From the NCBI GenBank assembly GCA_964565945.1, contig CAZMGY010000021.1, positions 90,001 to 122,000 on the forward strand: a DNA stretch of 32,000 bases. The letters run 5' to 3'. The position numbers and the translations under genes are program-made. Below are positions 1-22,482 of the stretch, one piece after another. The notes beneath the pieces were generated by a model. It was not told the DNA's origin. It saw only the letters and a list, made by a program, of their open reading frames with translations, and searched no databases. The stretch is from an uncultured bacterium. GTDB taxonomy: Bacteria; GCA-001730085. How positions within the stretch are numbered: position 1 is the first letter of the stretch; each line of letters begins with the position of its first letter.

Positions 1-318
1 CGCATAGGCATGCGATTGATAAAAGTGCTTAAGGCGCAGCAACCAATCACAAGGCACGTCAATATCATTGTTCACAATGCACACAAACTCACCACGTGCC
101 GCACGCACACCTTGATTCCATGCTGCCGCACAACCTTGGTTCTTTTCGTTACGAATAAGTATTGCCTCAACACCTTCTAAATAATGTTGCGTTTCCTCCT
201 GAGAGCCATTATCAATTAAAATCAACTCCAAGGACTCAAGAGGCGTCTTGAGGATCGAAACGATGCTTTGCTCTGTCCATTCCAAGTTATCTTTAACCGC
301 CATAACCACCGATATCAT
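1..318 (-). CDS. Family-2 glycosyltransferase (GT2). The N-terminal 106 aa are in the window and the gene continues past the window start.
   Basis: Not in the ORF track because it is open at the edge. The reverse complement of 1-318 reads MISVVMAVKDNLEWTEQSIVSILKTPLESLELILIDNGSQEETQHYLEGVEAILIRNEKNQGCAAAWNQGVRAARGEFVCIVNNDIDVPCDW... This is a typical GT2 N-terminal Rossmann region (LIDNGS ... NxG ... NND). Its ATG (316-318) overlaps the TGA of the upstream gene as ATGA. Confidence 0.75.
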   Translation of the reverse strand, partial: MISVVMAVKDNLEWTEQSIVSILKTPLESLELILIDNGSQEETQHYLEGVEAILIRNEKNQGCAAAWNQGVRAARGEFVCIVNNDIDVPCDWLLRLKHFYQSHAYA

Positions 319-2831
319 AACGCCAACTCCACATCCTGATCCACATAACCTGCATCGAGCAAGAGTGCTTGTTTTTGGGCATATAAATAATTTCGGTGCG
401 TCAAAATATGCTGCGCATAGATGGGACATTTTTTTTGATAGGCTTTGAAAAAGGCTATCTCATGAAGAAGCAATAAACCTTCGGGAAAAGCACCCCACAT
501 TTGTGAAATATTCTTTAACAACTGTCGTTGCGTCAAAGCACCGTTCAAGCGAACATGCCCATGATCTATTAAGTAAAACGTCCATTTGTGCTCGAAACTT
601 TTAAGCACCAAGATATTGTCAGGCGTAAGATCATTGTGAAAAACATCCTTAGCATGCAAATCCCCAATAAAATCCCCAAGGTGACTCATAAACTGCAGTC
701 TTTCTTTTTCGGTTTTGAGTGAACTGTAAAAAAATTTATCCGCATTTTGACTATCTGCCAAATAACGCATCACCAAGATACGCTTACGATAAAGATAAGC
801 AATAGGCTTAGGAACTCGAACGCCAGCAAAAAAAAGGTTCACCGAATGTTGCCACTCGCGATGCATTTGCCCAATTTTCTTTAAAGACATACCCTTAATT
901 TGTTTGCAACACAGGTGTCCCGTCAGGCTTAACTCGTGAAACACACGATAGGAGTGACTTTGTTTCAAAATATGCTCAGCACCAACATAGTCGGCTGAAC
1001 GAACAAGATTGGGAAGTTGAGCAAAAACACGTTTATAGCGAGGCATCCACTCGCCAATCATATTTCTTTGAACTTGAGCAATCTTGAGTGGGTACACGCG
1101 CAAAAAAGGTTTTTGATTGGCACATATTTTTTGAGAGATTCTATCAATATTTTCAAAGTACTTGCGCCAATGATGTGGAAAAAAGTTACGTTCCTTTTGG
1201 TATTGATTTAAAAAATAAAATTTTTCCGCCAAGGACAAAGCATCGCCAATAGAGCTATAAAGATAAACAAAGTTCATGACGACATTGTTAAGCGATATGT
1301 GTTCTACAAAATGAACCCGATGCAAATCGATAACATAAAACCATCTTTGCCCTTTGTCGTCATCCACTAATATGTTCGCGACATCTAAGTCCCGATGATA
1401 AAAACCGTGATTATGCATATGCGCCATAAAATCTGCAAACTGCTTAATGATAGCACGCCGTTCTAAAACAGTTTTTTTCTTAAAGGTCTCACGATACTCC
1501 AAACCATCTTTCATAGGCATCATATCTTCAACAATAAAAATACTTTCTTGAACGACTCCAAACCTTCTTCGTTCTGCATACAAAATAGGGGTAGGTGTCA
1601 ATATCCTTCTATGCTTTAATTGCCAAGAGGTCTTCCACTCGGTAAATCCTTTGGCTTTTTGTTTAAAAGTTTTAAGTTTATCTTTAAACCGTTTGAACAA
1701 ATACACCTTAACAACTAATGGGTACGTCACTCCTTTGTATTCGTAAGAGCGCCTAAGCACCTGGTGATAATCCGATTGACGTATAGATTCGCCCACACAA
1801 ATCGTTTGATCCATCACATCTCGTTCAATCATATGCAGCAGGTTGGGGGGGTAACCTTCGTTACCTATAAAGTTCCATCCATGTTTATTTTCGCACACAT
1901 GAGGCAATATATCATTCAAATGAGACAAGCCTTCGTGAAGAGGACAGCCACGCAAATGCCAGTAGATCAACCGCCAATAGGTTTGAGACTTAGACGAAAC
2001 CACGCCATGAAACACAGCATTCACAGCATAACGAAAGAAAAGCCATTGTTTAATAAAACGTAAAGTCCCCGCTTTAAAACCGCGCCGCCTCAAAAAAAGG
2101 TAAAGACTTTTGTGGTACTCTATCCGCGAAGCTAAGGGATACTTTTTCGCACTCTGTCCAGAATGATGAACAACCGTGACCTGAGGCAAAAACATAACCC
2201 GATAACCTTGCCGATTCAAACGCCAACACAAGTCGGTTTCTTCCATATAAAAAAAGTAACCTTCGTCATAACCTTGCATAGTATGAAAGATCTCTTTACG
2301 AATACAAAAACAAGCCCCGACAAGACTCTCAACTTTTATAGGTTGAGAGTAAGTTTTTCGTTTATGAGGAAATTTTTTGGGGTGCAAAAATCTTAAAATA
2401 TTTTTGTTGAGCAATAAAGATGCTATCGACGGATAATTGTCCACACTATTTCTCTTACGACCTTGAGCATCAACAAAGGCGGGCCCACAAGCGCCCACAT
2501 CGGGGTTGTCTTTTAAAAACCGAATCATCAATTCAATACTTTTCGGCAAAACCCTGGTATCGACATTCAGAAAAATGAGATATTCCCCTTTGGCCTTACG
2601 AGCGGCCTTATTGCAAGCTTTAGCAAACCCATAGTTGGTTGTATTTTGAATCCAGAGGATCTTCTCACTCTCTTTAAGTGCAACATAGGGATCATCGTTA
2701 GAAGCATTGTCGATCACAATTACTTCATAAGACAACTCAGTCTGTGCTGATCGAATCGCTTGCAAGCATTCTTTCAGCAGCAGTGCAGAATTAAAGTTAA
2801 CAATAATAATAGAAATATCACATTTCTTCAT
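315..2831 (-). CDS. Tri-domain LPS-core enzyme: an N-terminal GT2 glycosyltransferase fused to two tandem Kdo/WaaP-family (lipopolysaccharide kinase-like) domains.
   Basis: 838-aa ORF with AAGGAG 10 nt upstream of the ATG at 2831. Residues 1-300 carry GT2 motifs (ISIIIVNFNS, VIDNASND, FLNVDT, YMEETDLCWR). Residues ~345-565 carry a kinase catalytic loop (GFYHRDLDVANILV) plus FYVIDLHRV. Residues ~600-800 carry a second loop (DVFHNDLTPDNILV) plus FYLIDHGHV. Both resemble KdkA/WaaP HxDLxxxNIL...IDxx motifs. Confidence 0.8.
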   Translation of the reverse strand: MKKCDISIIIVNFNSALLLKECLQAIRSAQTELSYEVIVIDNASNDDPYVALKESEKILWIQNTTNYGFAKACNKAARKAKGEYLIFLNVDTRVLPKSIELMIRFLKDNPDVGACGPAFVDAQGRKRNSVDNYPSIASLLLNKNILRFLHPKKFPHKRKTYSQPIKVESLVGACFCIRKEIFHTMQGYDEGYFFYMEETDLCWRLNRQGYRVMFLPQVTVVHHSGQSAKKYPLASRIEYHKSLYLFLRRRGFKAGTLRFIKQWLFFRYAVNAVFHGVVSSKSQTYWRLIYWHLRGCPLHEGLSHLNDILPHVCENKHGWNFIGNEGYPPNLLHMIERDVMDQTICVGESIRQSDYHQVLRRSYEYKGVTYPLVVKVYLFKRFKDKLKTFKQKAKGFTEWKTSWQLKHRRILTPTPILYAERRRFGVVQESIFIVEDMMPMKDGLEYRETFKKKTVLERRAIIKQFADFMAHMHNHGFYHRDLDVANILVDDDKGQRWFYVIDLHRVHFVEHISLNNVVMNFVYLYSSIGDALSLAEKFYFLNQYQKERNFFPHHWRKYFENIDRISQKICANQKPFLRVYPLKIAQVQRNMIGEWMPRYKRVFAQLPNLVRSADYVGAEHILKQSHSYRVFHELSLTGHLCCKQIKGMSLKKIGQMHREWQHSVNLFFAGVRVPKPIAYLYRKRILVMRYLADSQNADKFFYSSLKTEKERLQFMSHLGDFIGDLHAKDVFHNDLTPDNILVLKSFEHKWTFYLIDHGHVRLNGALTQRQLLKNISQMWGAFPEGLLLLHEIAFFKAYQKKCPIYAQHILTHRNYLYAQKQALLLDAGYVDQDVELAL

Positions 2832-3594
2832 AAGAAGACCTCTCCTTTACCTGTGCCTCCCACAACTTTGCATATTTATAAAAGTCATGCGCCGCACTTA
2901 GACCAGAAAAAATCAATCCACTGACTCCATCCAAAAAGCCCCTTTTTAGCAGATAAAGCTTAAAAAAACGTACATGCCAAATAAATAGCAAGCGAATAAA
3001 GTTCATTCGTTTACCACGCCCTAGCTCTTTCTGCACATAAAGGTCACCATAGGTTTTAAACTTACTTAAATAATGACTTAAATTTTGATAAGGGTAATGT
3101 TCGATTACAACTTCAGACATAGGAAGCACCAGACCTTTAATATCCAAAGACTCATGCACAGGTGTTTGTTCAAAGCGGTGCTCAGATTGATTGCGAAATA
3201 GCCTAACAATAAGTTCACGCCCCAAACAATGATCCAACCATCGTCCTAAAAAAAAGGTGCGACGACGAAGCAGTACCCCCGCAGCGGACTTCTTATGTTC
3301 AAGAACCTGCTTCAGATCAAACCCCTCCTTAACTTTAAGAATCTCGTCCGAGTCCATCCACAAAACCCAATCTGAGGATACCTGGTTGAGAGCGATATTT
3401 TTTTGCTCGGCATAGCCCAACCATTCTTGCTCAATCACCTTGGCGCCCAAAGATTTGGCATATGTCACCGTCTCATCGCTGCTTCCCGAATCAACCACAA
3501 TAAGCTCATCCGCCCAGGGCTTAACACTATCCAAGCACTTCTTTAAGGCTTCGGCACAATTCAACGTTATAACAATGACACTTAAATGAATCAA
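2818..3594 (-). CDS. GT2 glycosyltransferase, KdtX/WaaE-like LPS core glycosyltransferase.
   Basis: Contains LSVIVITLNCAEALKKCLDSVKPWADELIVVDSGSSDETVTYAKSLGAKVIEQEWLGYAEQKNIA...WMDSDE, a typical GT2 core. The track ORF extends to an ATG at 3687, but that start has no SD and would overlap waaF by 97 nt. I prefer the TTG at 3594, which forms a TTGA start/stop overlap with waaF. The start is uncertain. Confidence 0.8.
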   Translation of the reverse strand: MIHLSVIVITLNCAEALKKCLDSVKPWADELIVVDSGSSDETVTYAKSLGAKVIEQEWLGYAEQKNIALNQVSSDWVLWMDSDEILKVKEGFDLKQVLEHKKSAAGVLLRRRTFFLGRWLDHCLGRELIVRLFRNQSEHRFEQTPVHESLDIKGLVLPMSEVVIEHYPYQNLSHYLSKFKTYGDLYVQKELGRGKRMNFIRLLFIWHVRFFKLYLLKRGFLDGVSGLIFSGLSAAHDFYKYAKLWEAQVKERSSYEEM

Positions 3595-4631
3595 CTTAAA
3601 ACCACTTTCTTCATTAGAGGAGCTACCGTCTTTAACACTTGCTCGACACGAATATCTTTCATACACGCCATTGTTCCCAAAGGACATGTTCGCTTAAAAC
3701 AAGGCGAACAATCGAGCTTAGAATACACCACATTAACCGTGCTGCCTAGGGGCTGTGTGAATTCTGGCAACGTCGACCCAAAAATCACAACGGTTTCTAC
3801 ATCAAGGGCAGCTGAAACATGCGCCAGTCCAGAATCATTGCCAATAAAAATCCGACATAAAGCCAACAATATTTGCACTTCTTTTAAATCTGTTTGCCCA
3901 CAAAGGTTAATAAAAACGTGTTCCGATCCTCTCATCACAAACCTAGCCTTGTCGGCATCTTTCGCCATTCCTAGCAACAAAATTTTAGCATTATACTTTT
4001 TGTGAAGCTCCAAACCCAAATAGCGATATCGCTCAGGGGACCAATCCTTAGCGGGCCCATAGGCTGAACTAATACCCAAAGCCATCAGGGGTTGATCTAC
4101 CCATTGATAAATTTTTTTCAATTGAGCTTTCTTTTTTTGCTTTTCCAAACTAGGCACAGTCAACGAAAGGGATATTTTTGGAGGCTCTTTCTTGGTCCAT
4201 AAAGGAAAAGCAAGAGCCATAAAGTGACGGCTTTGGTGTTTTTGACGCTGATCTTTGGGAAAGGGCAAAGCTTTGTTCAATAAAAACCCTCGCCCTTCTT
4301 TTTGGTAACCGATACGGTAGCTTATGCTGGCACAAGCAATTAATAAGGCCGAAAAAAAAGAGTTGGGGCACAGGATAGCAAGATCAATTTTATCTTTCCT
4401 AAGCATGCGAGCCGTTAACAACAATGCTTTCAAGCGATATTTTTTATCCCATACAACAACACGATCCGCTTGGTCTTGAAACAAATAGATATCCTTCAAA
4501 TGCTTAGGCGTTAAAACAATAAGCTCCGCTTGAGGGTACATATCTCTCAGCAATCCTAAAAGAGGCCTGGCCATCACAGCATCACCCAGCCAATTAGGCA
4601 TCATTAATAAAATACGTTCTACTTTTTCCAT
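3591..4631 (-). CDS. waaF: ADP-heptose:LPS heptosyltransferase II (GT9).
   Basis: Contains MPNWLGDAVMARPLL near the N-terminus, GNDSGLAHVSAAL, and the C-terminal LDCSPCFKRTCPLGTMACM cysteine motif, all characteristic of WaaF/RfaF. The track start at 4634 is a GTG and the adjacent ATG at 4631 is more likely. Confidence 0.85.
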   Translation of the reverse strand: MEKVERILLMMPNWLGDAVMARPLLGLLRDMYPQAELIVLTPKHLKDIYLFQDQADRVVVWDKKYRLKALLLTARMLRKDKIDLAILCPNSFFSALLIACASISYRIGYQKEGRGFLLNKALPFPKDQRQKHQSRHFMALAFPLWTKKEPPKISLSLTVPSLEKQKKKAQLKKIYQWVDQPLMALGISSAYGPAKDWSPERYRYLGLELHKKYNAKILLLGMAKDADKARFVMRGSEHVFINLCGQTDLKEVQILLALCRIFIGNDSGLAHVSAALDVETVVIFGSTLPEFTQPLGSTVNVVYSKLDCSPCFKRTCPLGTMACMKDIRVEQVLKTVAPLMKKVVLS

Positions 4632-4634
4632 CAC

Positions 4635-4802
4635 TTATGTAACCAAAACCACCTCTCTGCATCCTTTTCTCCAACGAGACGCTAAACACCTTTGTGTTAG
4701 ATGCTCAATAGCCTCATCCCACTCATAGCCTTCCTGATAATCTAGAGACTCAATCTCCAGATCAAATTAAAACACATGCTGACCATACTTTATCTCGTTC
4801 AT
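4635..4802 (-). pseudogene. Small ORF interrupted by an in-frame TAA (MNEIKYGQHVF*FDLEIESLDYQEGYEWDEAIEHLTQRCLASRWRKGCREVVLVT*). Possibly a gene remnant, or only an 11-codon coupled ORF.
   Basis: My own translation. The ATG at 4800-4802 overlaps the TGA of the 120-aa ORF as ATGA. There is an in-frame TAA at 4767-4769. The same frame then stays open to the TAA at 4635-4637, just before the waaF start. Confidence 0.2.
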
Positions 4803-5161
4803 TGTAGAACATCACAAGAGAGACGCCCAACTTTACCGCCAAAGTTGCATGTGTCGTAAACGTTTGTGCTTTTCGCCAAAAAAAAAGTCCTCGCATCTCC
4901 ATGATCTCCAGTATTTTGATCCACCACTTCTCTCACCTGAGCCACCTCTTGCACCTCATACATTACGTAACGCTTCCAAGTTGTTTGAAACTTAGCAGAA
5001 CAGCGAATCTCCCCTACAGTGATCATAAATTCTTGAAACACCGCTTGCACGGTTCGATCAATATCATGCGGATTTGGCCCCACAGGAAGATTAGATTGTC
5101 TTAAATCATTCTCCACTACCTTTTGCTCGTGAAGATAATAAACGTGACAGTATAGTCCCAA
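4799..5161 (-). CDS. Hypothetical protein of 120 aa with no family recognised.
   Basis: An ORF on the same strand as the flanking operon, with a TTG start preceded by AGGGAGAGG. I could recognise no conserved motifs, so it may be spurious or degenerate. Confidence 0.3.
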   Translation of the reverse strand: MGLYCHVYYLHEQKVVENDLRQSNLPVGPNPHDIDRTVQAVFQEFMITVGEIRCSAKFQTTWKRYVMYEVQEVAQVREVVDQNTGDHGDARTFFLAKSTNVYDTCNFGGKVGRLSCDVLQ

Positions 5162-5298
5162 GACCTCTCCCTAGGATCCTCATCCACGTATAGGGCAAAC
5201 AGAAACAAACCGCTTGAACTCCCCTCAAACCAAGGTAACCTAAATAGTCAAGACAACGCATACCCCATTATAATATAAAAAAGACTGCGCTTACAGGC

Positions 5299-6588
5299 CT
5301 AATGAGGCAAGGTGCGCCTAATCACGTCGAGCGCTTGATCAATCACATGTTTATCGCGACTCACGCACGCCCAAGCGTTTTGTCCCAAAGTTTCTCTCGT
5401 TAACTCATTTTGGGCCAAGCGAAGAACAGCACCCTTAAGATCTTCACGAGAAGCAAGCTGCTCCACAGCATGGTGACGCAATAGATCTTCGACAATATCT
5501 GTGAAATTAAACATATACGGCCCACAAATGATCGCTCGACTCCAAACGGCAGCCTCCAAAGGATTTTGTCCACCATGCTTGACCCAACTCCCCCCCATCA
5601 CAACCATATCGGCCAAAGCATACAAATCAAATAAGTCTCCAATCGTATCCACCAAGCAAACATCCTTGCTCCATATCTCGGCACCACTCTGTTGACAATC
5701 TGACAAATACGCCCAAGACAAAGACGTTTGAGCAAGCAAATATTCCACCTCAGGACATCGTTCAGGGTGACGTGGCGCCAAAATAAGCCTCCACTTTGCA
5801 TCCATCTGGTTATTTAGGTTTTCAAAAGCTGCTAGCATCACCTCATCTTCTCCAGCGTGAGTGCTTGCTGCAAGCAAAATTCGCACAGACGCCTCCTCTT
5901 TATTTTTGACCGAATACACGGGCTTTTGCTGCTCTTTGCGAGCTAGGGCCGCTTCATACTTAAAATGCCCTAAAGCAAGAACTTGCTCAGCGCAAACTCC
6001 TAAAGCCTCAAAACGCTCCTTGTCGCGAGACGTTTGCACCAAAATTATCGTCAACTTCTTGAGGAACGGACGTAAAAACCATCGACCTTTACGATAGTTT
6101 TGAAATGACCCGTCCGACAAGCGCGCGTTCATTAGAATCACGGGACAAGGCGATAAATGTAAAAGACTAGGCCAAATCTCTGTTTCCATAATCAACGTGA
6201 GTCTTGGGCTGACAATTTGATAAAATGACCTAAGAGCGAAAGGAAAATCAAGAGGAACATAAAGAACCTGTGCAATGTCTTTCAATCGCTTTTGAGCCAA
6301 GTTCTGGCCAGTTCGTGTGGTTGTAGTCACAACGAGCTGAAAAGGTGGCCAATCGGCCTTAAGACGACGAATAAGTGGCTCGGCTGCAAGGAACTCTCCC
6401 ACTGAAACACAATGCACCCACAGGTTCGCTTGCCGAACAAGCTGTTGCTTAAGCGGTTCACTATACAGCCCCAAGCGCTGCTTTAAACCCGCACGATGCT
6501 TTGGACTCCTCCACAAATGAAGTGCGATCAAGGGCAAGCCCAACAAACTGATTAATTGTAAAGCAAACGAATAAACAAAAAAGACCAT
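5299..6588 (-). CDS. waaA: 3-deoxy-D-manno-octulosonic acid (Kdo) transferase.
   Basis: 429 aa with an N-terminal membrane anchor. The WVHCVSVGEF motif and the overall GT30 layout are typical of WaaA/KdtA. The sequence GAGAGGG lies upstream of the ATG. Confidence 0.9.
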   Translation of the reverse strand: MVFFVYSFALQLISLLGLPLIALHLWRSPKHRAGLKQRLGLYSEPLKQQLVRQANLWVHCVSVGEFLAAEPLIRRLKADWPPFQLVVTTTTRTGQNLAQKRLKDIAQVLYVPLDFPFALRSFYQIVSPRLTLIMETEIWPSLLHLSPCPVILMNARLSDGSFQNYRKGRWFLRPFLKKLTIILVQTSRDKERFEALGVCAEQVLALGHFKYEAALARKEQQKPVYSVKNKEEASVRILLAASTHAGEDEVMLAAFENLNNQMDAKWRLILAPRHPERCPEVEYLLAQTSLSWAYLSDCQQSGAEIWSKDVCLVDTIGDLFDLYALADMVVMGGSWVKHGGQNPLEAAVWSRAIICGPYMFNFTDIVEDLLRHHAVEQLASREDLKGAVLRLAQNELTRETLGQNAWACVSRDKHVIDQALDVIRRTLPH

Positions 6589-6614: not shown

Positions 6615-6641
6615 AATATACCAGGTTCAGAAAAAAAGCAA
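6615..6641 (-). promoter_or_regulatory. Candidate extended -10 promoter for the waaA operon.
   Basis: The minus strand reads TTGCTT-N15-(TGg)TATATT, where the N15 spacer includes the TGg. This is a TGnTATATT extended -10 at 6615-6623, about 25 nt upstream of the waaA ATG and immediately after the porin terminator. Confidence 0.35.
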
Positions 6642-6671
6642 CCCCAGCTTTGCAAGAAAACCAGGGTTGCT
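6631..6671 (-). terminator. Rho-independent terminator of the porin gene.
   Basis: The minus strand reads AGCAACCCTGG-ttttcttgcaaag-CTGGGGTTGCT followed by TTTTTT. The stem is 11 bp including 2 G-U pairs, and the element begins about 33 nt after the porin stop codon. Confidence 0.8.
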
Positions 6672-6703
6672 TTAATATGTAAAGACTTTGTATTAAGTAA
6701 GTC

Positions 6704-8065
6704 TTAGAATTCAACAGTTACGCTGCTAACCAATTCGTAAGCGTCGTCAGAGTGAGCATCTGTGAACCCATTACCTGAATTAAGGAAAGATCCTTGGAAA
6801 GAGAACATTACATCTTCTGTGTAATCATAAGTCACAGAACCAATAAGTTCAACACCCAAGTTTTTTCCAGGACCATCATGGATTTTTTCATCGAAATGAG
6901 CATACACCAAGCTTACACCAGCTTCGATATCTTCGAAAGGTACGAAAGAAACAGAAGCAGTCACACCATGAATGTTTCCAGATCCACCTCTTAGATTATC
7001 ATCGATCACAGCATCTGTACGATTAGCCAATTGATCAATGAGGTTTCCAATTCCACGAACATAGTGAGTCGCAGACCAAGCTTTGTTCTTACCATCGCCA
7101 AGGTCACCATCACCAGAACGATAATCATAGTACAAGCTTACTTTTGGCTCATACTCATTGTGAAATACGTAAGAACCACCAATGATCGCAGCCCAAGCTT
7201 TGCGGTCTTCATGCACCCTGAAGATATCCTCTCCCTGATTAAAAGCCACGATTTCATTCCCAAATTGGTAAGCCAATTCAGCTTCCATATGAAGGCTTTC
7301 GTCTATCGAGACCACTGGCCCCTCAATACGAGCACCAATCGTGTGGATACCATCATCCTGAAGGTTAGATGTGCTACCTTCTTGAGTTATACGATCTTCA
7401 GCATGTTGAAAAACCCAGTATCCAGAAGCCATAACTTCGGAAGGGAATATATAGTCAACGTTGATACCGTAAAGAGTTGTGTCAGCCTCATCGGACATAC
7501 TCCCTGCACCAGTAGCAGCTTCAAAACTTTCATCGATACGAGCGATGAAGAAATCAAGCATTACCAGATCCAAGTCCAATTGAGCACGGATCGCATCGAA
7601 TCCAGACTCAAGACCATACCAAGCGTTATCCAAGCCAGAGTTAATATTAACGTTAGGAATACCATCAGCGATAACCAATCCAGATCCCCATACAATCTCT
7701 TGACGACCAATGGTCAATGTCAAAGGAGAGTATAAGAACTCAGACAATTGTACGTAAGCCAAGTCAATATCAATATCATCTTCACTAACATTGCTACCGA
7801 TGTTATCCGCACCGTCCCATTCGCGTTGATTCAAGAAACGAACGTAAGTTTTTACGTTATCTGTCAAATCAGCTTCAAAGTAAACGCGAGTTTGAGAGAA
7901 AAAAGAGTTGCCAGAAACTTTCTCCTTATCGCTCAAAGTCATCGTACTGTTTTTCAAATAAGTCGCGGTGAAATCCCCACCCACTTTAATCGACTGCGTT
8001 TCCGCAAACGCAGGCGTTGCAACGGCAAAAGCCAAAGCAACGGCACTTAGTAACATTCTTTTCAT
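6704..8065 (-). CDS. Outer-membrane beta-barrel porin (alginate-export/OmpL-like type).
   Basis: Signal peptide MKRMLLSAVALAFAVATPAFA. The body has alternating amphipathic, Gly/Asp/Tyr-rich beta-strand character, and the C-terminus ends VTVEF (terminal Phe OMP signature). A strong AAGGAG SD sits at 8074-8079. Confidence 0.8.
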   Translation of the reverse strand: MKRMLLSAVALAFAVATPAFAETQSIKVGGDFTATYLKNSTMTLSDKEKVSGNSFFSQTRVYFEADLTDNVKTYVRFLNQREWDGADNIGSNVSEDDIDIDLAYVQLSEFLYSPLTLTIGRQEIVWGSGLVIADGIPNVNINSGLDNAWYGLESGFDAIRAQLDLDLVMLDFFIARIDESFEAATGAGSMSDEADTTLYGINVDYIFPSEVMASGYWVFQHAEDRITQEGSTSNLQDDGIHTIGARIEGPVVSIDESLHMEAELAYQFGNEIVAFNQGEDIFRVHEDRKAWAAIIGGSYVFHNEYEPKVSLYYDYRSGDGDLGDGKNKAWSATHYVRGIGNLIDQLANRTDAVIDDNLRGGSGNIHGVTASVSFVPFEDIEAGVSLVYAHFDEKIHDGPGKNLGVELIGSVTYDYTEDVMFSFQGSFLNSGNGFTDAHSDDAYELVSSVTVEF

Positions 8066-8390: not shown

Positions 8391-9116
8391 ATGATCTATT
8401 TTCTTATACCAATATACAATGATGCCAACAATATACTTAATATCATTAAGGAGTACAAACAGTTCTTTAAAAAAAAAGACAGTAGTTATCTATTGCTATT
8501 TATCAATGACTGTAGCAGCGATAATATCAAAGATATTTTTTCCACCATTAATTCACCAAAGGTGAAATGTATCCACTTTGATCACAATCGTGGCCCAGGA
8601 GCTGTTATCAAAGACGCTATTCACTTAATTGCCCCCAAACTCAAAGACGACGATATTGTGATTGTTCGCGAAGCCGACCAAGCCAATAATGGCTCACAAA
8701 CACTGCACATGATGCTCAACAAAATGCACGAAGGCTATGATGTTGTCACTGCGTCTATCTTTGCACCTGGAGGACGTATGGTCGGAGTTCCTTTCCACCG
8801 TTTCTTAATGACACAAGTTTGCAACGCCCTCTATCGCATCTTTTTTTACGTGCGTGGCGTTAAACTTTTCACGATTTTTTTTCGAGCTTACCGCGGTCAA
8901 GTCCTCAGACAACTAGTCAAGCAAGAACCCGAAACATTTATTAGCTCCAACGGTTTTGGGTTTTCCTCGGAGTTGCTCGTTAAATGCATCCAAAATCATT
9001 ATCTGATTTGTGAAGTCCCTATCGTCCTTCGTTTGGATTTAAACCAGAAAAAAAGTACTCTCAAAATCAAAAGAACCCTTCAAGAGCATATTCGCATCAT
9101 ACGGAACAACTTATGA
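8391..9116 (+). CDS. GT2 glycosyltransferase, polyprenyl-phosphate sugar synthase (DPM1/ArnC-like) type.
   Basis: 241 aa containing IYFLIPIYNDANNI...LLLFINDCSSDN...NRGPGAVIKDA...READQ, a GT2 Rossmann core. No obvious TM segments. Its stop overlaps the next gene's start as ATGA. Confidence 0.7.
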   Translation: MIYFLIPIYNDANNILNIIKEYKQFFKKKDSSYLLLFINDCSSDNIKDIFSTINSPKVKCIHFDHNRGPGAVIKDAIHLIAPKLKDDDIVIVREADQANNGSQTLHMMLNKMHEGYDVVTASIFAPGGRMVGVPFHRFLMTQVCNALYRIFFYVRGVKLFTIFFRAYRGQVLRQLVKQEPETFISSNGFGFSSELLVKCIQNHYLICEVPIVLRLDLNQKKSTLKIKRTLQEHIRIIRNNL

Positions 9117-10375
9117 TTCGCTTCATATCCCTCGCCCTTATTATTCGAATAGTTCTGATCCCCATCACATTTCATGGCGATCTAATCTGGGTGCAAACAT
9201 GGCCAAGCCTCTGGGCTTTCTTTGGACACTTTGATGGGTACGGCTACATGGTTGAAAACTATGCCGAACTTTTGCAAACTTATGGCGTTTTTTATTATGG
9301 ACCTTTCACCTACCTTACCATAGGTCTCTGGCAACATATCGCCCAACTGTTTGCTCCCGACATGGGCATGTGGCTCATCGATGTGCTCAATCAAACCCAG
9401 GACACACTCACATCTCAAACCCTTCTTACCACACCAACAGCCTCAATCAAATCTTTTCTGACATGGTTTAAAATCCCCTATCTTCTGGCCGATCTCACGT
9501 GCGGAGCACTCCTTTGGATCTTAGCCCCTTCGCAACGCAAAACCTCTCTCCTGCTGTGGGGACTAAATCCCGCTCTCATTTATGCCACCTACATGTTTGG
9601 TCAGCTTGATATTTTTATCGCTCTTAGTCTTCTCGGTTTTTTCTATTCTTATAAAAGAAATCGCCTCCACTTGGCCTTTATTTGCTTAGGTATCGGCTTT
9701 GCTTATAAGAATGCCACCTTGTTTGTTATCGCTCCAGCTCTTATTTTGTGTAACACCAATTTGCGAAGTTTTATTCGCTATTCGCTATGTTTTGCCATAC
9801 CGATTGTGCTAAGCACGGGTCTGTTTTGGATTCATTCACCATCTATTTTAGGCTGGCTACTGCCAGGTGTTATTCAGGACAAGCTCGTAGGTCACAACGA
9901 AGTGGAATGGGGCAAAATTATCAAGCTAGGCCTTCTGGCTTTTAACTACGGCCTTTTACTTATCCATTGTTTCCGTATTAAACTTCGCGCACCCCACGTA
10001 GATATCTATCAACAACTGATTTATACGTTCACAGCATCGTTTCTACTCGTCTATTGTTTTTTATCCGTCACGGTTCACTATTTTGTTTGGAGCTTACCTT
10101 GCCTTATCCTTTTAGCTCTCAACGAACCCAAATACACCAAATACATTTGGATTTTGACTGGATGCATGATGCTTTACAAAATCAAAAAAGCATCTATGTG
10201 CTTAGGCTTGTTTGCTCCCCTCAATCCCGAATTTTTTTATGCACTTCCAGGACTTCAAGACATCCCTGGCCCCATTACGTGGAAAAACCTCGTCAAAATC
10301 TTTCGCGTCGGTTTTATTGTGACCAGTTTTTTTATTATGTATGAGTGCTTCAAGCCCGCACAAGCTAAGAAATAG
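9113..10375 (+). CDS. Polytopic integral membrane protein, candidate GT-C-fold glycosyltransferase (DUF2029/ArnT-like).
   Basis: 420 aa with roughly 10 or more hydrophobic segments. An acidic/aromatic first loop (FHGDLIWVQTWPS...FDGYGY) follows TM1. It is translationally coupled to the upstream GT2. Family assignment is by architecture only. Confidence 0.5.
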   Translation: MIRFISLALIIRIVLIPITFHGDLIWVQTWPSLWAFFGHFDGYGYMVENYAELLQTYGVFYYGPFTYLTIGLWQHIAQLFAPDMGMWLIDVLNQTQDTLTSQTLLTTPTASIKSFLTWFKIPYLLADLTCGALLWILAPSQRKTSLLLWGLNPALIYATYMFGQLDIFIALSLLGFFYSYKRNRLHLAFICLGIGFAYKNATLFVIAPALILCNTNLRSFIRYSLCFAIPIVLSTGLFWIHSPSILGWLLPGVIQDKLVGHNEVEWGKIIKLGLLAFNYGLLLIHCFRIKLRAPHVDIYQQLIYTFTASFLLVYCFLSVTVHYFVWSLPCLILLALNEPKYTKYIWILTGCMMLYKIKKASMCLGLFAPLNPEFFYALPGLQDIPGPITWKNLVKIFRVGFIVTSFFIMYECFKPAQAKK

Positions 10376-14745: not shown

Positions 14746-15524
14746 CGAGTGTATCCTCTTTGTGAACGCCCCTCCCCTAAAAAGTCTAGAATAACCTGAA
14801 TTACAGGCCCTGAAGCATATTTTTGATGTATTTTAGATATGGCATCTGCTACGGTTAACGTACTACGAAAAATCCATTTATGCGCCTGCTTGATAGCCAT
14901 AATATCATCTTCACTAAACCCACGTCTTTTCAAACCCACAATATTAACACTGCTCATTTTGGAAGGGTTCCCCCCCACAAGCCCATAAGGAACAACATCC
15001 TGCAGAATAGGGCTCATTCCTCCAATCATGGCATGAGCGCCAATCCGAACAAACTGATGAATTCCTGAAAGCCCACCAATCATGGCATAATCATCAACAG
15101 TCACATAGCCCCCCAGAGTTGCGAGATTAGCCAAAGTCACATTATTTTTAATCTTACAATTATGTGCCACATGAGAAAAGGCCATCAGAAAACAATCCCT
15201 CCCCACCGAAGTAACCTCTCCCTCAGAAGCTCCAGGATTAATCGTTACACTCTCACGAACGGTGGTGCGCTCACCAATAGTTAAATAACTTTCACATGGC
15301 TTATATCTTAAATCTTGCGGTGCCGAACCAATGCTGGCATGCGGATAAATAAGACTCTCTTTGCCAATGGTCGTATAGCCCTCCACCACAACGTGACTCA
15401 TAATCTTAGCCCTTGCATGGATTTTGACATGAGGACCAATGACAGCATAGGAACCAACAGTCACATCACTATCAAGCTGAGCTTGCGGATCAATAATAGC
15501 TGTGGGGTGAATTTGCGACGGCAT
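14742..15524 (-). CDS. lpxA: Acyl-ACP--UDP-N-acetylglucosamine O-acyltransferase.
   Basis: Starts IHPTAIIDPQAQL, followed by hexapeptide repeats and a C-terminal helical domain. TAATG junction with lpxC-fabZ. Confidence 0.92.
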   Translation of the reverse strand: MPSQIHPTAIIDPQAQLDSDVTVGSYAVIGPHVKIHARAKIMSHVVVEGYTTIGKESLIYPHASIGSAPQDLRYKPCESYLTIGERTTVRESVTINPGASEGEVTSVGRDCFLMAFSHVAHNCKIKNNVTLANLATLGGYVTVDDYAMIGGLSGIHQFVRIGAHAMIGGMSPILQDVVPYGLVGGNPSKMSSVNIVGLKRRGFSEDDIMAIKQAHKWIFRSTLTVADAISKIHQKYASGPVIQVILDFLGEGRSQRGYTR

Positions 15525-16855
15525 TATTGAATCTCGTCAACAAATGCAAACTTAAACTGTCCTTCTGCAACTACTTCATCATTCACAAAGGCCTGCCCTT
15601 CGATAGCTTTTATCTTGTTGCGCATCCGAACTATCTCTACTTTAAGAAGTAAGGTATCTCCAGGGCGAACCGGGCGACGAAATTTAACCTGATCCAAACT
15701 CATGAAATAAGCTATTTTCCCATCATTCCCACTTTTCTCTGTCATCAAACAAGCTGCCGTCTGGGCCAAAGCTTCTAAAATAAGAACGCCCGGCATAACA
15801 GGGTGTCCTGGGAAGTGTCCTTGAAAAAAGGACTCATTAATCGACACATTTTTTAAACCCGTCGCTTTCGTGTGGCCATCAGTTTCAATAATGCGATCAA
15901 TCAATAAAAAAGGATATCGATGAGGAATAATTTTTTTAATTTGGTTAATATCTAAAGGCTCCCCAGACTTAATTAAGCTCTCTTCTCCACTCGTACCTTC
16001 TCCTGTCTGAGTTATTTTGTGCTTCTTTAAAGCTTTGACTAATTCTACATTCAAGCTGTGCCCCGACTTATGTGCAATCACATGAGCCTTAACTCTTTGC
16101 CCTAGCAAAGTCAGGTCTCCTATTATATCTAAAATTTTGTGCCGCACAAACTCATCCTCGAAACGAATACTTTCGTTAAGCACTCCCGTCTCGGTCACAA
16201 CCACCGCATTATCTAAACTACCACCTTTAATTAAGTCGGCTTTACGCAAAAAATCAATCTCAAAGTCAAAACAAAAGGTCCGTGCCGAAGAAATCTCTTC
16301 CAAAAAGCTTTCTTCCGAATAATTATACGATTTGGCCTGTTGTGCCAAATAGGAATGGTCATACTCGATGGTGAAAGAAATTCGAAGCCCATCATAAGGC
16401 AAAGCCACCATAAACATATCCTTCGTCTCGATCGTCACAGGCTCCTTCAAGTTCAAATAAGACCTTGGCTTGGTTTGTTCAACAAGTCCCACTTCGAGAA
16501 AGGCTCGACAAAAGTCTACGCTGCTACCATCTAAAGCAGGAATCTCATCACTAGTTAATTCTAAAATAGCATTATCCATCCCAATCCCAGTTAAAGCCGA
16601 CATCAAGTGCTCTATCGTATGAACCACTGCACCATCCTTGGCAACCGTTGTTCCTCGGGATGTATTAACAACATAATCAACTTCCACAGGAATTTCGGGG
16701 CAACCATCCAAGTCCGTGCGAACAAAAACAAAGCCCTTATCTTCAGGAGCAGGCTTTACCACTAAAGACACTTCGTGTCCCGTATGCAAACCTATTCCCT
16801 TAAACAAAACACACGAAGCAAGGGTGTGCTGCATTGGTGTATTAGTGAGAGTCAC
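15524..16855 (-). CDS. lpxC-fabZ: Bifunctional UDP-3-O-acyl-GlcNAc deacetylase / 3-hydroxyacyl-ACP dehydratase (LpxC-FabZ fusion).
   Basis: The N-terminal half is LpxC ([29 protein letters not shown]). The C-terminal half is FabZ ([36 protein letters not shown]). GTG start with GAGGAG 7 nt upstream. Confidence 0.92.
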
Positions 16856-20883: not shown

Positions 20884-22449
20884 CTAAGTCTTTAATTGGA
20901 GCTGTTTCGAAAACCACCCTCGCGTGTAAGCATCCAAACGAGCTGTTAACTCATCAATGCGCAGTAATTTGAAGGCTTTATCTTGACCACTGATTTCCGA
21001 CTTGAGAGCTAATTCCATCTGTTCTCGTCGTCGCTCGAAATAAATACGTGTCACTTCGTCTAAAACATTCTCTCTTAATTGCACCATCTGCTTCGAGCGC
21101 GAATCAATTGATGTTTGGGCCGAGCTATAAAGAAACTCCCCCAAATCCCAAGACACAGCCACACCCCATTTGCGATCATGCTCCACGGGACGATCAATGA
21201 TCTTTCCATTTGAATACACATTAAAGCGATCAATGTGATCTCGTGAAAAAGAAAAATTTACATCTGGCCACAGGGCTTGCTTCTTAGCCTGGTCCCTCAA
21301 GAGGTCAATCTTCCCCTTATCCACCTCTGCATACCAAATGGCTTTTTGTTGGACATCTTGGACAGATGGCTCATGAGCGAAGTCCCATTCATTTGACCAT
21401 TGATCCCAGGCTTTCATATCTAAGGATGCCTCCCAGCGATAAAGACCATGCGAGCTTAAACACACAACCGCGGGGCCAAGTGACCATATCCCGTAGATAG
21501 CGCTTTGCTCCAAACCTTCTTGTTTCCTTTTCCAAAAAAGAGCCCCCGATTTTAAGCCAAAAACTCCTTGATCACTAGCAACCCAAACCTGTTCACCAAC
21601 GTAAAGATCGTGAATATATTCATAATCGGGCAAGCCTCCGTTAGGGATTGATTTAGCTTCCCATCCATCGGCCTGCAACTGAAAACACTTAACCCCTTCC
21701 GATGAAACATACCAGAGTCGCTTATACGCCTCATCCCAAACTAATCCTCCTGTCTTCAAGCTATGGATATCGAAAGAATAATCCGTATCGTCATCGGTCT
21801 CAGGAGCCGCCTCGACAAGATCTTCATCTTCGCTCACTTGCACGTAGAAGCGGTCCAGTACAAGCCAACTCTGCCCGTAATCGGCCGAATACAACACCCC
21901 ATGAGAAGCTAAGGCAAACACGCGTCGCCCACTAATTTGCACCGCAGTGACCCAATGCTGACCTCGCGTACGATACACCTCGCTCCACGAGACCCCACCA
22001 TCAATGGAGTGTATAAGCGTTTGACGTGTGCTTAACCAAATATCCGATCCCGTCTCACTGACCCATACATTTAAAATTGGATCATCGGTGGCAATTTTTT
22101 TTAGCGTGCACACCCGCTCTGGAGTTACATGGTAAAGTTTCGTCGCCGTTGCCACCACAACCTTCTCGGAAGACACAACTGCAAAAGAGCGAATCTCTTC
22201 GGAACGGTTTGTTTTAAAAAAACACGTCCACACGCCCTCCTTAAGAACCCAAACATGCTTCGCCGTTGCGATAAAAGGATTCTCTGTTCGGTATTGCACC
22301 GTCGGACTTATCGGTGGCGTCAAACTTTGACGCTGCGACAAATAACGTCCAACAGGTTTCCAAACAGCTTCCAAATAAGTACTGCCAGCTCCCAACATCA
22401 GCAAACTTATCCCCACCGTCCAAAGTTTTTTAAGCACAAGGTTTTTCAT
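20884..22449 (-). CDS. Secreted protein with BNR/Asp-box (SxDxGxxW) beta-propeller-like repeats and a TolC/OEP-like C-terminal region; function unknown.
   Basis: ATG at 22449 with GGAGG 8 nt upstream. Signal peptide MKNLVLKKLWTVGISLLMLGAGSTYLEA. Asp-boxes SIDGGVSW (21985-22008) and SADYGQSW (21865-21888). Acidic linker SEDEDLVEAAPETDDDTD. The C-terminal ~160 aa shows an OEP-repeat-like pattern (ALWPDVNFSFS..., WGVAVSWDLGEFLY...). Confidence 0.6.
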   Translation of the reverse strand: MKNLVLKKLWTVGISLLMLGAGSTYLEAVWKPVGRYLSQRQSLTPPISPTVQYRTENPFIATAKHVWVLKEGVWTCFFKTNRSEEIRSFAVVSSEKVVVATATKLYHVTPERVCTLKKIATDDPILNVWVSETGSDIWLSTRQTLIHSIDGGVSWSEVYRTRGQHWVTAVQISGRRVFALASHGVLYSADYGQSWLVLDRFYVQVSEDEDLVEAAPETDDDTDYSFDIHSLKTGGLVWDEAYKRLWYVSSEGVKCFQLQADGWEAKSIPNGGLPDYEYIHDLYVGEQVWVASDQGVFGLKSGALFWKRKQEGLEQSAIYGIWSLGPAVVCLSSHGLYRWEASLDMKAWDQWSNEWDFAHEPSVQDVQQKAIWYAEVDKGKIDLLRDQAKKQALWPDVNFSFSRDHIDRFNVYSNGKIIDRPVEHDRKWGVAVSWDLGEFLYSSAQTSIDSRSKQMVQLRENVLDEVTRIYFERRREQMELALKSEISGQDKAFKLLRIDELTARLDAYTRGWFSKQLQLKT

Positions 22450-22482
22450 CCTGAAAGCCTCCAAGAAAGTCCTTGGGTTTTG

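What the first reader, a model, noticed from the sequence alone, without database searches (positions are those of the whole stretch)
315..2831. One polypeptide combining a GT2 glycosyltransferase with two tandem Kdo/WaaP-type kinase domains, inside the LPS core operon
KdkA (Kdo kinase) and WaaP (heptose kinase) are normally stand-alone proteins of about 240-270 aa. Here a single 838-aa ORF carries three parts. The first is a complete-looking GT2 (aa 1-300). The second is a kinase-like domain with HRDLDVANILV ... VIDL (aa ~345-565). The third is a second kinase-like domain with HNDLTPDNILV ... LIDH (aa ~600-800). Both copies keep the catalytic Asp, the downstream Asn and the metal-binding Asp, so neither is an obvious pseudokinase. 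The gene is overlap-coupled to GT2 genes on both sides and lies downstream of waaA and waaF. This suggests a channelled 'glycosylate then phosphorylate twice' step on the Kdo/heptose inner core. I do not recognise this domain architecture as described.
Basis: partly seen in the sequence, partly recalled or inferred. Interest (0 to 1): 0.72.

Follow-up and report, generated by a model that had tools for sequence, protein, structure and literature searches.

The report
Sugar-transferase fused to two LPS kinases
One real 838-residue gene in a lipopolysaccharide-core operon joins a sugar-adding enzyme to two intact sugar-kinase domains; the double-kinase unit is common but unstudied in uncultured bacteria, and only its fusion to the transferase is uncommon.

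Summary
ORF 315..2831 (-) encodes 838 aa with one GT2 domain (Pfam 92.7 bits) and two Kdo/WaaP-family kinase domains (63 and 40 bits; cut-off 21.3). Both kinase domains keep the Lys, Glu, HxD, Asn and metal-binding Asp. It is not an artefact: a second assembly matches without gaps, and two orthologs at about 40% identity keep the same uninterrupted ORF in the same block (GT9, small GT2, fusion, small GT2).

An exhaustive HMMER search shows that stand-alone tandem Kdo-Kdo proteins are common (133 of the best 150 representatives). They descend from one ancient duplication, and both halves stay catalytic in about 98% of members. Fusions to GT2, GT4 and GT9 recur in other lineages. The close clade is rare: four lineages related to a Bugula-associated PVC bacterium, nearest Omnitrophota.

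"Channelled, phosphorylate twice" is not supported. The linkers are flexible, one ortholog has a degenerate domain 1, and another has a disrupted GT2 with intact kinases.

Most likely it is a peripheral-membrane inner-core enzyme that adds one sugar and two phosphates. I found no paper describing the architecture. It is a new variant of a known kind, of moderate interest.

The parts
315..2831 (-). Complete 838-aa ORF encoding GT2, Kdo-kinase domain 1 and Kdo-kinase domain 2 (stop codon at 315-317)
   Evidence: ORF list. Pfam and NCBIfam scans. An identical protein, P0001, is on an independently assembled contig.
2139..2831 (-). GT2 (GT-A fold) catalytic core, aa 1-231
   Evidence: PF00535 at aa 7-183 (92.7 bits) and PF13641 at aa 6-231. 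D41, N89-V-D91 and E197-E-T-D200-L are invariant in the three orthologs. Foldseek finds GT-A hits such as GalNAc-T2, RmlT and 6p61.
1929..2138 (-). Helical C-terminal tail of the GT2 module, aa 232-301 (three long helices, basic)
   Evidence: AF2 helices 232-249, 254-274 and 280-293. The segment 241-345 has net charge +6, and no transmembrane segment is predicted. The tail is conserved in other GT2-Kdo-Kdo fusions, with alignment running to aa 297.
1896..1928 (-). Linker 1, aa 302-312
   Evidence: pLDDT below 50.
1101..1895 (-). Kinase domain 1 (WaaP-like), aa 313-577. Catalytic set: K375 (1707-1709), E398, H479-R-D481, N486, D502-L-H (loop at 1326-1397)
   Evidence: PF06293 63.2 bits. phmmer to WaaP 6dfl, E 1.9e-7. 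It has the same HRD and DLH motifs as published for WaaP (PMC6147952). These residues are kept in 131-136 of 136 tandem-family members, except H479 at 114 of 136.
1023..1100 (-). Linker 2, aa 578-603
   Evidence: pLDDT below 50 over residues 578-603.
318..1022 (-). Kinase domain 2 (divergent Kdo/Bud32-like), aa 604-838. Catalytic set: K643 (903-905), E659, H732-N-D734, N739, D756 (loop at 564-638)
   Evidence: PF06293 40.2 bits. The whole catalytic set is invariant in the three orthologs. K, H, D, N and D are kept in 126-133 of 136 family members. The AF2 model has pLDDT 93 and pTM 0.89; Foldseek gives PRPK/Bud32 at TM 0.70-0.76 and WaaP at TM 0.65.
2818..3687 (-). Upstream small GT2 gene, overlapping the fusion start by 14 nt (its true start is probably downstream of 3687)
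   Evidence: PF00535 72.2 bits. A GT2 of 252-258 aa occupies the same position in L001 and L003.
1..318 (-). Downstream small GT2 gene, with its start overlapping the fusion's stop (ATGA); it runs off the window
   Evidence: The translation MISVVMAVKDN...LIDNGSQ is shown. The complete 252-aa GT2 is on L017 and at the same position in L001, L003 and L015.
3591..4634 (-). GT9 heptosyltransferase (WaaF-type)
   Evidence: PF01075 157.9 bits. TIGR02195 214.8 bits against a cut-off of 134.6.
4622..5261 (-). Decayed LpxL-type late acyltransferase pseudogene between waaA and the GT9 gene
   Evidence: tblastn finds collinear fragments in different reading frames when queried with the intact acyltransferases of L001 and L003. 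No ORF there matches a family.
5299..6588 (-). waaA (Kdo transferase), first gene of the unit
   Evidence: PF04413 188.7 bits. NF004388 scores 347.7 bits, below its equivalog cut-off of 438. A 17-bp-stem terminator at 6635-6673 (-) separates it from the porin gene upstream.

Best explanation
The gene encodes a trifunctional enzyme of lipopolysaccharide inner-core assembly. The enzyme is soluble but probably associates peripherally with the membrane. It works on the cytoplasmic face of the inner membrane, after WaaA has added Kdo and the GT9 enzyme has added heptose. The N-terminal GT2 (GT-A fold) module transfers one sugar from a nucleotide sugar to the growing lipid A-core. The two C-terminal Kdo/WaaP-family domains each transfer the gamma-phosphate of ATP to a different hydroxyl of an inner-core sugar (heptose or Kdo), which supplies the negative charges that cross-link LPS.

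The two kinase domains are not a recent duplicate. They are the two conserved halves of a widespread, uncharacterised tandem LPS-kinase module that usually occurs as a stand-alone protein of about 550 aa. In this small Omnitrophota-related lineage the module has been fused to its GT2 partner. The fusion most likely ensures co-localisation and fixed stoichiometry, not substrate channelling.

Shown: the domain identities, the intact catalytic residues, the folds, the conserved operon context and the distribution of the family. Inferred: the acceptor, the donor sugar, the order of reactions, and that both kinase domains are active in this organism.
For: Folds: the full-length AF2 model has pLDDT 87.2, with WaaP 6dfl at rank 2 (E 9.5e-12, TMt 0.73) plus GT-A hits. 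The domain 2 model has pLDDT 93 and matches PRPK/Bud32 and WaaP.

Context: the block waaA, degraded lpxL, GT9, GT2, fusion, GT2 is in the window. The same LpxL-GT9-GT2-fusion-GT2 block is in L001 and L003. The lipid A genes lpxD, lpxC-fabZ, lpxA, lpxI, lpxB and msbA lie upstream.

Family evidence: 133 of the best 150 representatives are stand-alone tandems. N-terminal halves best-match N-terminal halves in 132 of 136 cases, and C-terminal halves match C-terminal halves in 134 of 136. The catalytic K, D, N and D are kept in about 98% of members in both halves.

Rosetta-stone evidence: the tandem module abuts a GT2 gene (L019), sits among GT4, single-domain Kdo-kinase and PMT_2 genes (L020), and is fused to GT2, GT4 or GT9 in LPS-core clusters (L018, L021).

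The protein has no transmembrane segment, a pI of 9.56, and all four segments are basic. As a precedent for several core kinases acting in series, P. aeruginosa encodes waaP, wapP, wapQ and PA5006 in one operon (PMC3147165).
Against: Neither kinase domain reaches the NCBIfam equivalog cut-offs: KdkA 69 bits against 142, RfaP 51 bits against 170. The substrate is therefore not assigned by homology. Domain 2 is structurally at least as close to the protein and tRNA-modification kinase PRPK/Bud32 as to WaaP.

Ortholog P0002 has lost the catalytic Asp (HRD to LNN), the Glu398 equivalent and probably the Lys375 equivalent of domain 1. Two phosphorylations are therefore not universal in this clade. 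One stand-alone tandem kinase (P0267, L016) is not in an LPS cluster. No heptose-synthesis genes or second heptosyltransferase are visible in the window. There are no biochemical data for any member.
Confidence: 0.55

Rival explanations
1. Kinase plus pseudokinase. Only domain 2 is the working phosphotransferase in this clade. Domain 1 mainly serves as a scaffold, or binds the acceptor or ATP, and may position the lipid A-core for the GT2 and domain 2 active sites.
For: All catalytic residues of domain 2 are invariant in the three orthologs. In contrast, domain 1 of P0002 has Q, S, LNN at the positions of K375, E398 and H479-R-D481. The same substitutions appear in the independent 136-sequence alignment.
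Against: In the window protein, and in P0003 and P0120, domain 1 keeps every catalytic residue, including the WaaP-type HRD and DLH motifs. Across the family these residues are kept in 131-136 of 136 members, except H479 at 114 of 136. Domain 1 is also the half most similar to WaaP.
Confidence: 0.2
2. The enzyme acts on a polyprenol-linked glycan (O-antigen or another surface polysaccharide), not on lipid A-core. For example, it could add and phosphorylate a terminal residue, as WbdD does when it caps the E. coli O9a chain.
For: The best NCBIfam GT2 matches are polysaccharide or rhamnosyl-type GT2 enzymes, all below cut-off. Several stand-alone tandem kinases sit next to methyltransferases and GT4 genes (L019, L020, L018), which recalls WbdD's pairing of a kinase with a methyltransferase (PMC3482155 listed). 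The window also carries Wzy_C, Wza-like and Wzz-like genes at 22.5-27.8 kb.
Against: In all three orthologous loci the gene sits directly after the GT9 heptosyltransferase, in the waaA/lpxL block. No methyltransferase or ABC-transporter O-antigen export genes are adjacent in the window. The Pfam family that both domains match is the LPS-core kinase family.
Confidence: 0.15
3. One or both kinase domains phosphorylate proteins or act as ATPases. Possible modes are Bud32/PRPK-like activity or WaaP-like tyrosine autophosphorylation. In that case they would regulate the glycosyltransferase instead of modifying sugars.
For: The best fold matches of domain 2 are PRPK/Bud32 and its best NCBIfam match is Bud32. 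WaaP is reported to autophosphorylate on tyrosine in vitro (PMC9138534).
Against: The same review says WaaP shows no true protein kinase activity in vivo. Kdo, Bud32 and Rio are known to form one structural cluster, so the fold match is expected (PMC1821047). Both domains pass the Kdo gathering score, and their Bud32 scores are far below cut-off. The operon context is entirely glycan assembly.
Confidence: 0.05
4. The single ORF is an assembly or frameshift artefact that joins separate GT2 and kinase genes.
For: In L015 (58% identity) gene callers do report a separate 217-aa GT2 and a 564-aa kinase.
Against: A second assembler gives the same sequence with no gaps. Orthologs at 40-41% identity from NCBI, JGI, ENA and Logan are all single ORFs of 833-841 aa. 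The split in L015 is caused by an internal deletion of about 66 aa plus a frame change inside GT2, not by a natural gene boundary.
Confidence: 0.02

Closest known systems
WaaP (RfaP), LPS core heptose(I) kinase of P. aeruginosa and E. coli (PDB 6dfl)
   Same: Domain 1 belongs to the same Pfam family (PF06293). It has the same K/E/HRD/DLH catalytic set and the same fold (TMt 0.73), and it sits in an LPS-core operon next to heptosyltransferase genes.
   Different: WaaP is a stand-alone protein of about 260 aa. The window domain scores 51 bits against the 170-bit equivalog cut-off and is only about 21% identical. Whether it needs acyl-ACP as WaaP does is unknown, and its target hydroxyl is unknown.
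KdkA, Kdo kinase (NCBIfam NF002475)
   Same: This is the best-scoring NCBIfam kinase model for domain 1 (69 bits), and it belongs to the same Pfam family.
   Different: The score is below the 142-bit cut-off. KdkA is a single-domain enzyme found in organisms with a one-Kdo core. Here a heptosyltransferase is adjacent, and the functionality of WaaA (one or two Kdo) is untested.
The P. aeruginosa waaP-wapP-wapQ-PA5006 kinase operon (PMC3147165)
   Same: Several Kdo-family kinases act on one inner core and are encoded together with waaF, waaC and glycosyltransferase genes.
   Different: In P. aeruginosa each kinase is a separate polypeptide. Here two are covalently linked to each other and to a glycosyltransferase.
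Uncharacterised stand-alone tandem Kdo-Kdo proteins of about 550 aa (annotated 'lipopolysaccharide kinase InaA family protein' or 'Bud32')
   Same: The window's aa 313-838 are a collinear member: the same two paralogous halves, the same catalytic residues, and similar glycan-cluster contexts.
   Different: They lack the N-terminal GT2 module. The nearest ones (P0121, P0122) are only 29-30% identical.
Other GT fusions to tandem Kdo kinases: P0129, P0159 and P0162 (GT2-Kdo-Kdo), P0128 (GT2-Kdo-Kdo-GT9), P0151 and P0183 (Kdo-Kdo-GT4), P0273 (GT4-Kdo-Kdo-GT9)
   Same: They have the same architecture class. The GT2 modules of P0129, P0162 and P0159 are the best non-ortholog matches to the window's GT2: about 35% identity over 300 aa, including the helical tail.
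   Different: Their kinase regions fall into different groups on the neighbour-joining tree. Overall identity is 25-28%. Some carry additional GT9 or GT4 modules. None is characterised.
WbdD, kinase-methyltransferase of E. coli O9a O-antigen (PMC3482155)
   Same: It is a precedent for a kinase-like domain fused to a second glycan-modifying domain in LPS biosynthesis.
   Different: WbdD acts on the Und-PP-linked O-chain terminus, carries a methyltransferase instead of a glycosyltransferase, and has one kinase domain. No sequence relationship was tested here.

Membership tests
Kdo/WaaP lipopolysaccharide kinase family (Pfam PF06293) | HMM match above the gathering score for each putative domain | tested here: met
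   Domain 1 scores 63.2 bits and domain 2 scores 40.2 bits against a cut-off of 21.3.
Kdo/WaaP lipopolysaccharide kinase family (Pfam PF06293) | Complete kinase catalytic set: beta3 Lys, alphaC Glu, HxD, Asn and metal-binding Asp | tested here: met
   K375/E398/H479-D481/N486/D502 and K643/E659/H732-D734/N739/D756 are all present. The published WaaP set is K51/E78/HRD/DLH.
Kdo/WaaP lipopolysaccharide kinase family (Pfam PF06293) | Protein-kinase-like fold resembling WaaP | tested here: met
   In the full-length model 6dfl_A ranks second (TMt 0.73). In the domain 2 model 6dfl_A ranks tenth (TM 0.65), behind PRPK/Bud32.
Kdo/WaaP lipopolysaccharide kinase family (Pfam PF06293) | ATP-dependent phosphorylation of an LPS core sugar | not testable with these tools
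   This needs an enzyme assay or core mass spectrometry.
WaaP/RfaP equivalog (NCBIfam NF011703, heptose(I) O-4 kinase) | Score at or above the curated equivalog cut-off (170 bits) | tested here: not met
   51.3 bits, best stretch aa 396-547.
KdkA equivalog (NCBIfam NF002475, Kdo kinase) | Score at or above the curated equivalog cut-off (142 bits) | tested here: not met
   69.2 bits, two stretches.
Glycosyltransferase family 2 (GT-A fold, PF00535) | HMM match above the gathering score, a GT-A fold, and conserved nucleotide-sugar, metal and catalytic-base motifs | tested here: met
   92.7 bits against a cut-off of 23.3. GT-A structures are top Foldseek hits. D41-N, N89-V-D91-T and E197-E-T-D200-L are invariant in the orthologs. 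Assigning specific roles to these motifs rests on general knowledge of GT2 enzymes and was not tested.
Tandem Kdo-Kdo module (uncharacterised, about 550 aa) | Two collinear paralogous halves, each orthologous to the same half in other members | tested here: met
   Collinear phmmer matches over aa 1-529 of the query. N halves match N halves in 132 of 136 cases and C halves match C halves in 134 of 136. Outside its own clade, the window's N half best matches P0122_N and its C half best matches P0121_C.
Kinase-pseudokinase tandem (as in JAKs or plant tandem kinase proteins) | One domain lacks essential catalytic residues | tested here: not met
   Both domains of the window protein are complete. 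Only ortholog P0002 has a degenerate domain 1.
Bud32/PRPK (KEOPS kinase) | Score above the TIGR03724 cut-off (125 bits) and association with Kae1/KEOPS genes | tested here: not met
   60.6 bits. There are no KEOPS-type neighbours; all neighbours are glycan-assembly genes.

The most novel reading that the evidence does not exclude
The tandem Kdo-Kdo module may be a widespread, unrecognised 'di-kinase' of LPS inner-core assembly, in which the two ancient paralogous halves have fixed and different site specificities. Its recurrent fusion to GT2, GT4 and GT9 enzymes would then mark obligatory physical coupling between glycosylation and phosphorylation. In that case the window protein would be a self-contained three-step core-assembly machine that hands the acceptor from the GT2 site to the two kinase sites in order.
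Probability: 0.2. Interest if true: 0.6.

Novelty: new variant of a known kind. Interest (0 to 1): 0.35.

Why it matters
Core phosphates are central to outer-membrane stability and to resistance against cationic antimicrobials, and WaaP is a drug target in P. aeruginosa. All biochemistry so far comes from single-domain proteobacterial kinases.

This locus points to a large family of two-domain LPS kinases that has not been studied. It is typically a stand-alone protein of about 550 aa, and both halves stay catalytic. Its natural fusions to GT2, GT4 and GT9 enzymes link it to specific glycosyltransferase partners. The fused proteins give a direct, testable hypothesis for which transferase works with which kinases in uncultured PVC, Omnitrophota and deltaproteobacterial lineages. 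They would also be convenient single-polypeptide reagents for reconstituting several core-assembly steps.

The finding does not reveal a new kind of chemistry or system.

Tried and rejected
(1) Assembly or frameshift artefact: rejected.

(2) L015/P0120 as evidence of a natural GT2/kinase gene split: rejected. tblastn shows a deletion of about 66 aa and a frame change inside GT2. I could not tell whether this is real pseudogenisation or an error in a single-run assembly.

(3) Nitrospirae and Deltaproteobacteria loci with long matches (L009-L013): these turned out to be two adjacent stand-alone GT2 genes of about 314 aa, not fusions.

(5) Profile search of the word-indexed protein collection with that alignment: returned only 4 hits and gave almost no taxonomy.

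(6) Single versus multiple origin of the GT2 fusion: the neighbour-joining tree of kinase regions splits the GT2 fusions into three groups, yet their GT2 modules are each other's best matches. At these distances (0.75-0.85) the tree is unreliable, so the question stays unresolved.

(7) Rfam scan of the window: no RNA families. The promoter scan was not above shuffled expectation.

(8) Literature searches for tandem or GT-fused Kdo kinases: nothing relevant. The library lacks most subscription journals, so absence is not proof.

(9) From memory, the upstream small GT2 resembles WaaE/LgtF-type heptose beta-1,4-glucosyltransferases. No tool result supports or refutes this, so I did not use it.


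Full report
**1. Observation**

The window contains a single ATG-to-TGA reading frame of 838 codons at 315..2831 on the minus strand. Pfam finds one Glycos_transf_2 domain (aa 7-183, 92.7 bits) and the Kdo/WaaP LPS-kinase family PF06293 with two stretches. When the two C-terminal segments are scanned alone, aa 348-575 scores 63.2 bits and aa 576-838 scores 40.2 bits, against a gathering cut-off of 21.3. Each domain also has the upstream Lys and Glu: K375/E398/H479-R-D481/N486/D502, and K643/E659/H732-N-D734/N739/D756.

The gene overlaps the upstream GT2 ORF by 14 nt and the downstream GT2 start by ATGA. It follows a GT9 heptosyltransferase (TIGR02195, 214.8 bits against a cut-off of 134.6) and waaA.

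**2. Not an artefact**

A Logan contig from run SRR23257875, built with a different assembler, matches window 1-3334 at 99.94% with no gaps. Two orthologs at 41% and 40% identity are uninterrupted ORFs of 841 and 833 aa. One (P0002) comes from the PVC group bacterium ex Bugula neritina AB1 (GCA_001730085.1). The other (P0003) is on JGI and ENA metagenome contigs. Both sit in the same block: LpxL-type acyltransferase, GT9, small GT2, fusion, small GT2, with 1-4 nt overlaps. Conservation of the frame across about 60% sequence divergence excludes a frameshift or chimeric join.

**3. Structure**

An AlphaFold2 model built on a 105-sequence alignment has mean pLDDT 87.2. It resolves three well-folded modules:
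- GT-A core plus three long basic helices (aa 1-301)
- kinase domain 1 (aa 313-577)
- kinase domain 2 (aa 604-833)

The modules are separated by low-confidence linkers at 302-312 and 578-603. The pTM of 0.56 means the mutual arrangement of the modules is not determined.

Foldseek against the PDB returns P. aeruginosa WaaP (6dfl) at rank 2 (E 9.5e-12, TMt 0.73), among GT-A glycosyltransferases. Domain 2 modelled alone (pLDDT 93, pTM 0.89) is closest to PRPK/Bud32 (TM 0.70-0.76) and then WaaP (TM 0.65). This agrees with the published grouping of the Kdo, Bud32 and Rio kinases (PMC1821047).

Domain 1 carries the same HRD and D-L-H motifs that the WaaP structure paper identifies as catalytic (PMC6147952). 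The protein has no predicted transmembrane segment and is uniformly basic (pI 9.56). That fits a peripheral enzyme working on an anionic membrane and lipid A surface; the localisation itself is inference.

**4. How unusual is it?**

An exhaustive phmmer search with aa 310-838 against 1.84 billion representatives at 50% identity gave 2,152 hits at E<=1e-3 and 425 at E<=1e-10. Of the best 150, 133 are proteins of 480-660 aa, nearly all with two matched stretches. These are stand-alone tandem Kdo-Kdo proteins. Public annotation calls them 'lipopolysaccharide kinase InaA family protein' or 'Bud32'.

The two domains of the window protein are 25% identical to each other (E 8e-14), but the duplication is ancient and shared. 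In an all-against-all comparison of halves, N-terminal halves best-match N-terminal halves of other proteins in 132 of 136 cases, and C-terminal halves match C-terminal halves in 134 of 136. In a 136-sequence alignment the catalytic Lys, Asp, Asn and metal-binding Asp are kept in 132-136 members in both halves. The tandem module is therefore a common and apparently doubly active unit, not a peculiarity of this gene.

**5. Fusions recur**

Ten of the top 150 representatives are longer than 660 aa. Three of them are the window protein and its two full-length orthologs. Pfam shows the architectures of the other seven:
- GT2-Kdo-Kdo: P0129, P0159, P0162
- GT2-Kdo-Kdo-GT9: P0128, 1,112 aa
- Kdo-Kdo-GT4: P0151, P0183
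- GT4-Kdo-Kdo: P0255. A 1,228-aa member of its cluster, from Syntrophobacteraceae, is GT4-Kdo-Kdo-GT9.

Their contexts are LPS-core or glycan clusters containing GT9, LpxL, single-domain Kdo kinases, Wzy_C and PMT_2 genes. The stand-alone tandem kinase P0126 directly abuts a 319-aa GT2 gene.

The GT2 modules of P0129, P0162 and P0159 are the best non-ortholog matches to the window's GT2, at about 35% identity over 300 aa including the helical tail. The kinase regions, however, fall into three groups on a neighbour-joining tree. One origin versus several fusion events is unresolved.

**6. The close clade is rare**

Only four lineages carry close orthologs: the window, L015 (58% identity), P0002 and P0003. 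Among the 185,579 GTDB species genomes scanned, the only full-length ortholog is in the Bugula PVC bacterium. The JGI metagenome scan added none.

The window's DnaB is 72% identical to that of the same PVC bacterium, after which identity drops to about 56% against many Candidatus Omnitrophota. The fusion therefore tracks a small Omnitrophota-related lineage.

**7. Evidence bearing on mechanism**

Three observations argue against an obligatory 'glycosylate, then phosphorylate twice' channel:
- **Flexible linkers.** Low-confidence linkers join the modules, and their relative placement is undetermined.
- **Degenerate domain 1 in P0002.** Its domain 1 has Asn in place of the catalytic Asp (HRD to LNN), Ser in place of the Glu, and Gln at the Lys position. 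Its domain 2 and GT2 stay fully conserved. In that relative, at most one kinase is active.
- **Disrupted GT2 in L015.** About 66 aa of GT2, including the YFFYMEETDLCWR motif, are deleted with a frame change, while the 564-codon kinase frame is intact. This could be real decay or a single-run assembly error.

In the window protein itself, all three modules look catalytically complete.

**8. Best explanation**

It is a trifunctional inner-core enzyme that adds one sugar (GT2) and two phosphates (domains 1 and 2) to lipid A-Kdo-heptose on the cytoplasmic face of the inner membrane. This is analogous to the serially acting, separately encoded WaaP, WapP, WapQ and PA5006 kinases of P. aeruginosa (PMC3147165). 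The fusion would serve co-localisation and stoichiometry.

Neither kinase domain passes the KdkA or WaaP equivalog cut-offs (69 bits against 142, and 51 against 170). The acceptor hydroxyls and the donor sugar therefore remain unassigned. My confidence is 0.55. The rivals are:
- kinase plus pseudokinase (0.20)
- action on a polyprenol-linked glycan, as WbdD does (0.15)
- a protein-kinase or ATPase role (0.05)
- artefact (0.02)

**9. Novelty and score**

I found no paper describing tandem Kdo kinases or their GT fusions. The searchable library is incomplete, so this is not proof of absence. The architecture is already present in public databases under generic automatic names. It is built from well-known families and sits in the expected pathway.

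It is best classed as a new variant of a known kind. The more interesting lead is the whole tandem-kinase family, not this one gene. Interest is 0.35.

Noticed in passing
window 4622-5261 (- strand): The 660-nt gap without an ORF between waaA and the GT9 gene holds collinear, frame-broken fragments of the LpxL-type late acyltransferase that is intact at this position in L001 and L003. The best fragment is 56% identical (E 7e-9). It is a decayed pseudogene, which suggests this organism makes under-acylated lipid A or uses another acyltransferase.
   Followed up: partly
L015 378-2665 (Logan SRR28385527 contig): The 58%-identical ortholog has an internal deletion of about 66 aa plus a frame change. 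This removes the catalytic-base motif of the GT2 module, while the 564-codon tandem-kinase frame stays intact. It is either GT2 pseudogenisation or a single-run assembly error.
   Followed up: partly
L001 7901-10426 (P0002, PVC group bacterium ex Bugula neritina): Kinase domain 1 of this ortholog has lost the catalytic Asp (HRD to LNN), the alphaC Glu (to Ser) and the aligned beta3 Lys (to Gln). Domain 2 is fully conserved. This is a natural kinase-pseudokinase variant of the fusion.
   Followed up: yes
window 15524-16855 (- strand): LpxC and FabZ are fused in one 443-aa ORF (PF03331 331 bits plus PF07977 118 bits). It sits inside a compact cluster: bamA, ompH, lpxD, lpxC-fabZ, lpxA, lpxI, lpxB, msbA.
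   Followed up: no
window 6635-6673 (- strand): A strong intrinsic-terminator-like hairpin (17-bp stem followed by a T-run) lies between the Alginate_exp-type porin gene (6704-8065) and waaA. It marks the start of the core-assembly transcription unit.
   Followed up: no
window 9113-10375 (+) and 20884-22464 (-): Two long ORFs (420 and 526 aa) have no Pfam match at E<=1e-3. The first follows a GT2 gene, and the second lies between bamA and a Wzy_C (O-antigen ligase-like) gene.
   Followed up: no
L021 8001-11687 and L018 6871-10209: Very large LPS-core fusion proteins occur in other lineages: GT4-Kdo-Kdo-GT9 (1,228 aa, Syntrophobacteraceae) and GT2-Kdo-Kdo-GT9 (1,112 aa). Each joins a heptosyltransferase, another transferase and two kinases in one chain.
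   Followed up: partly
L019, L020, L018 (flanks of stand-alone or fused tandem kinases): SAM-dependent methyltransferase genes (Methyltransf_23/11) repeatedly sit next to tandem Kdo kinases. This recalls the kinase-methyltransferase pairing of WbdD and hints at methyl-phosphate modifications in those lineages. No such gene is in the window.
   Followed up: no
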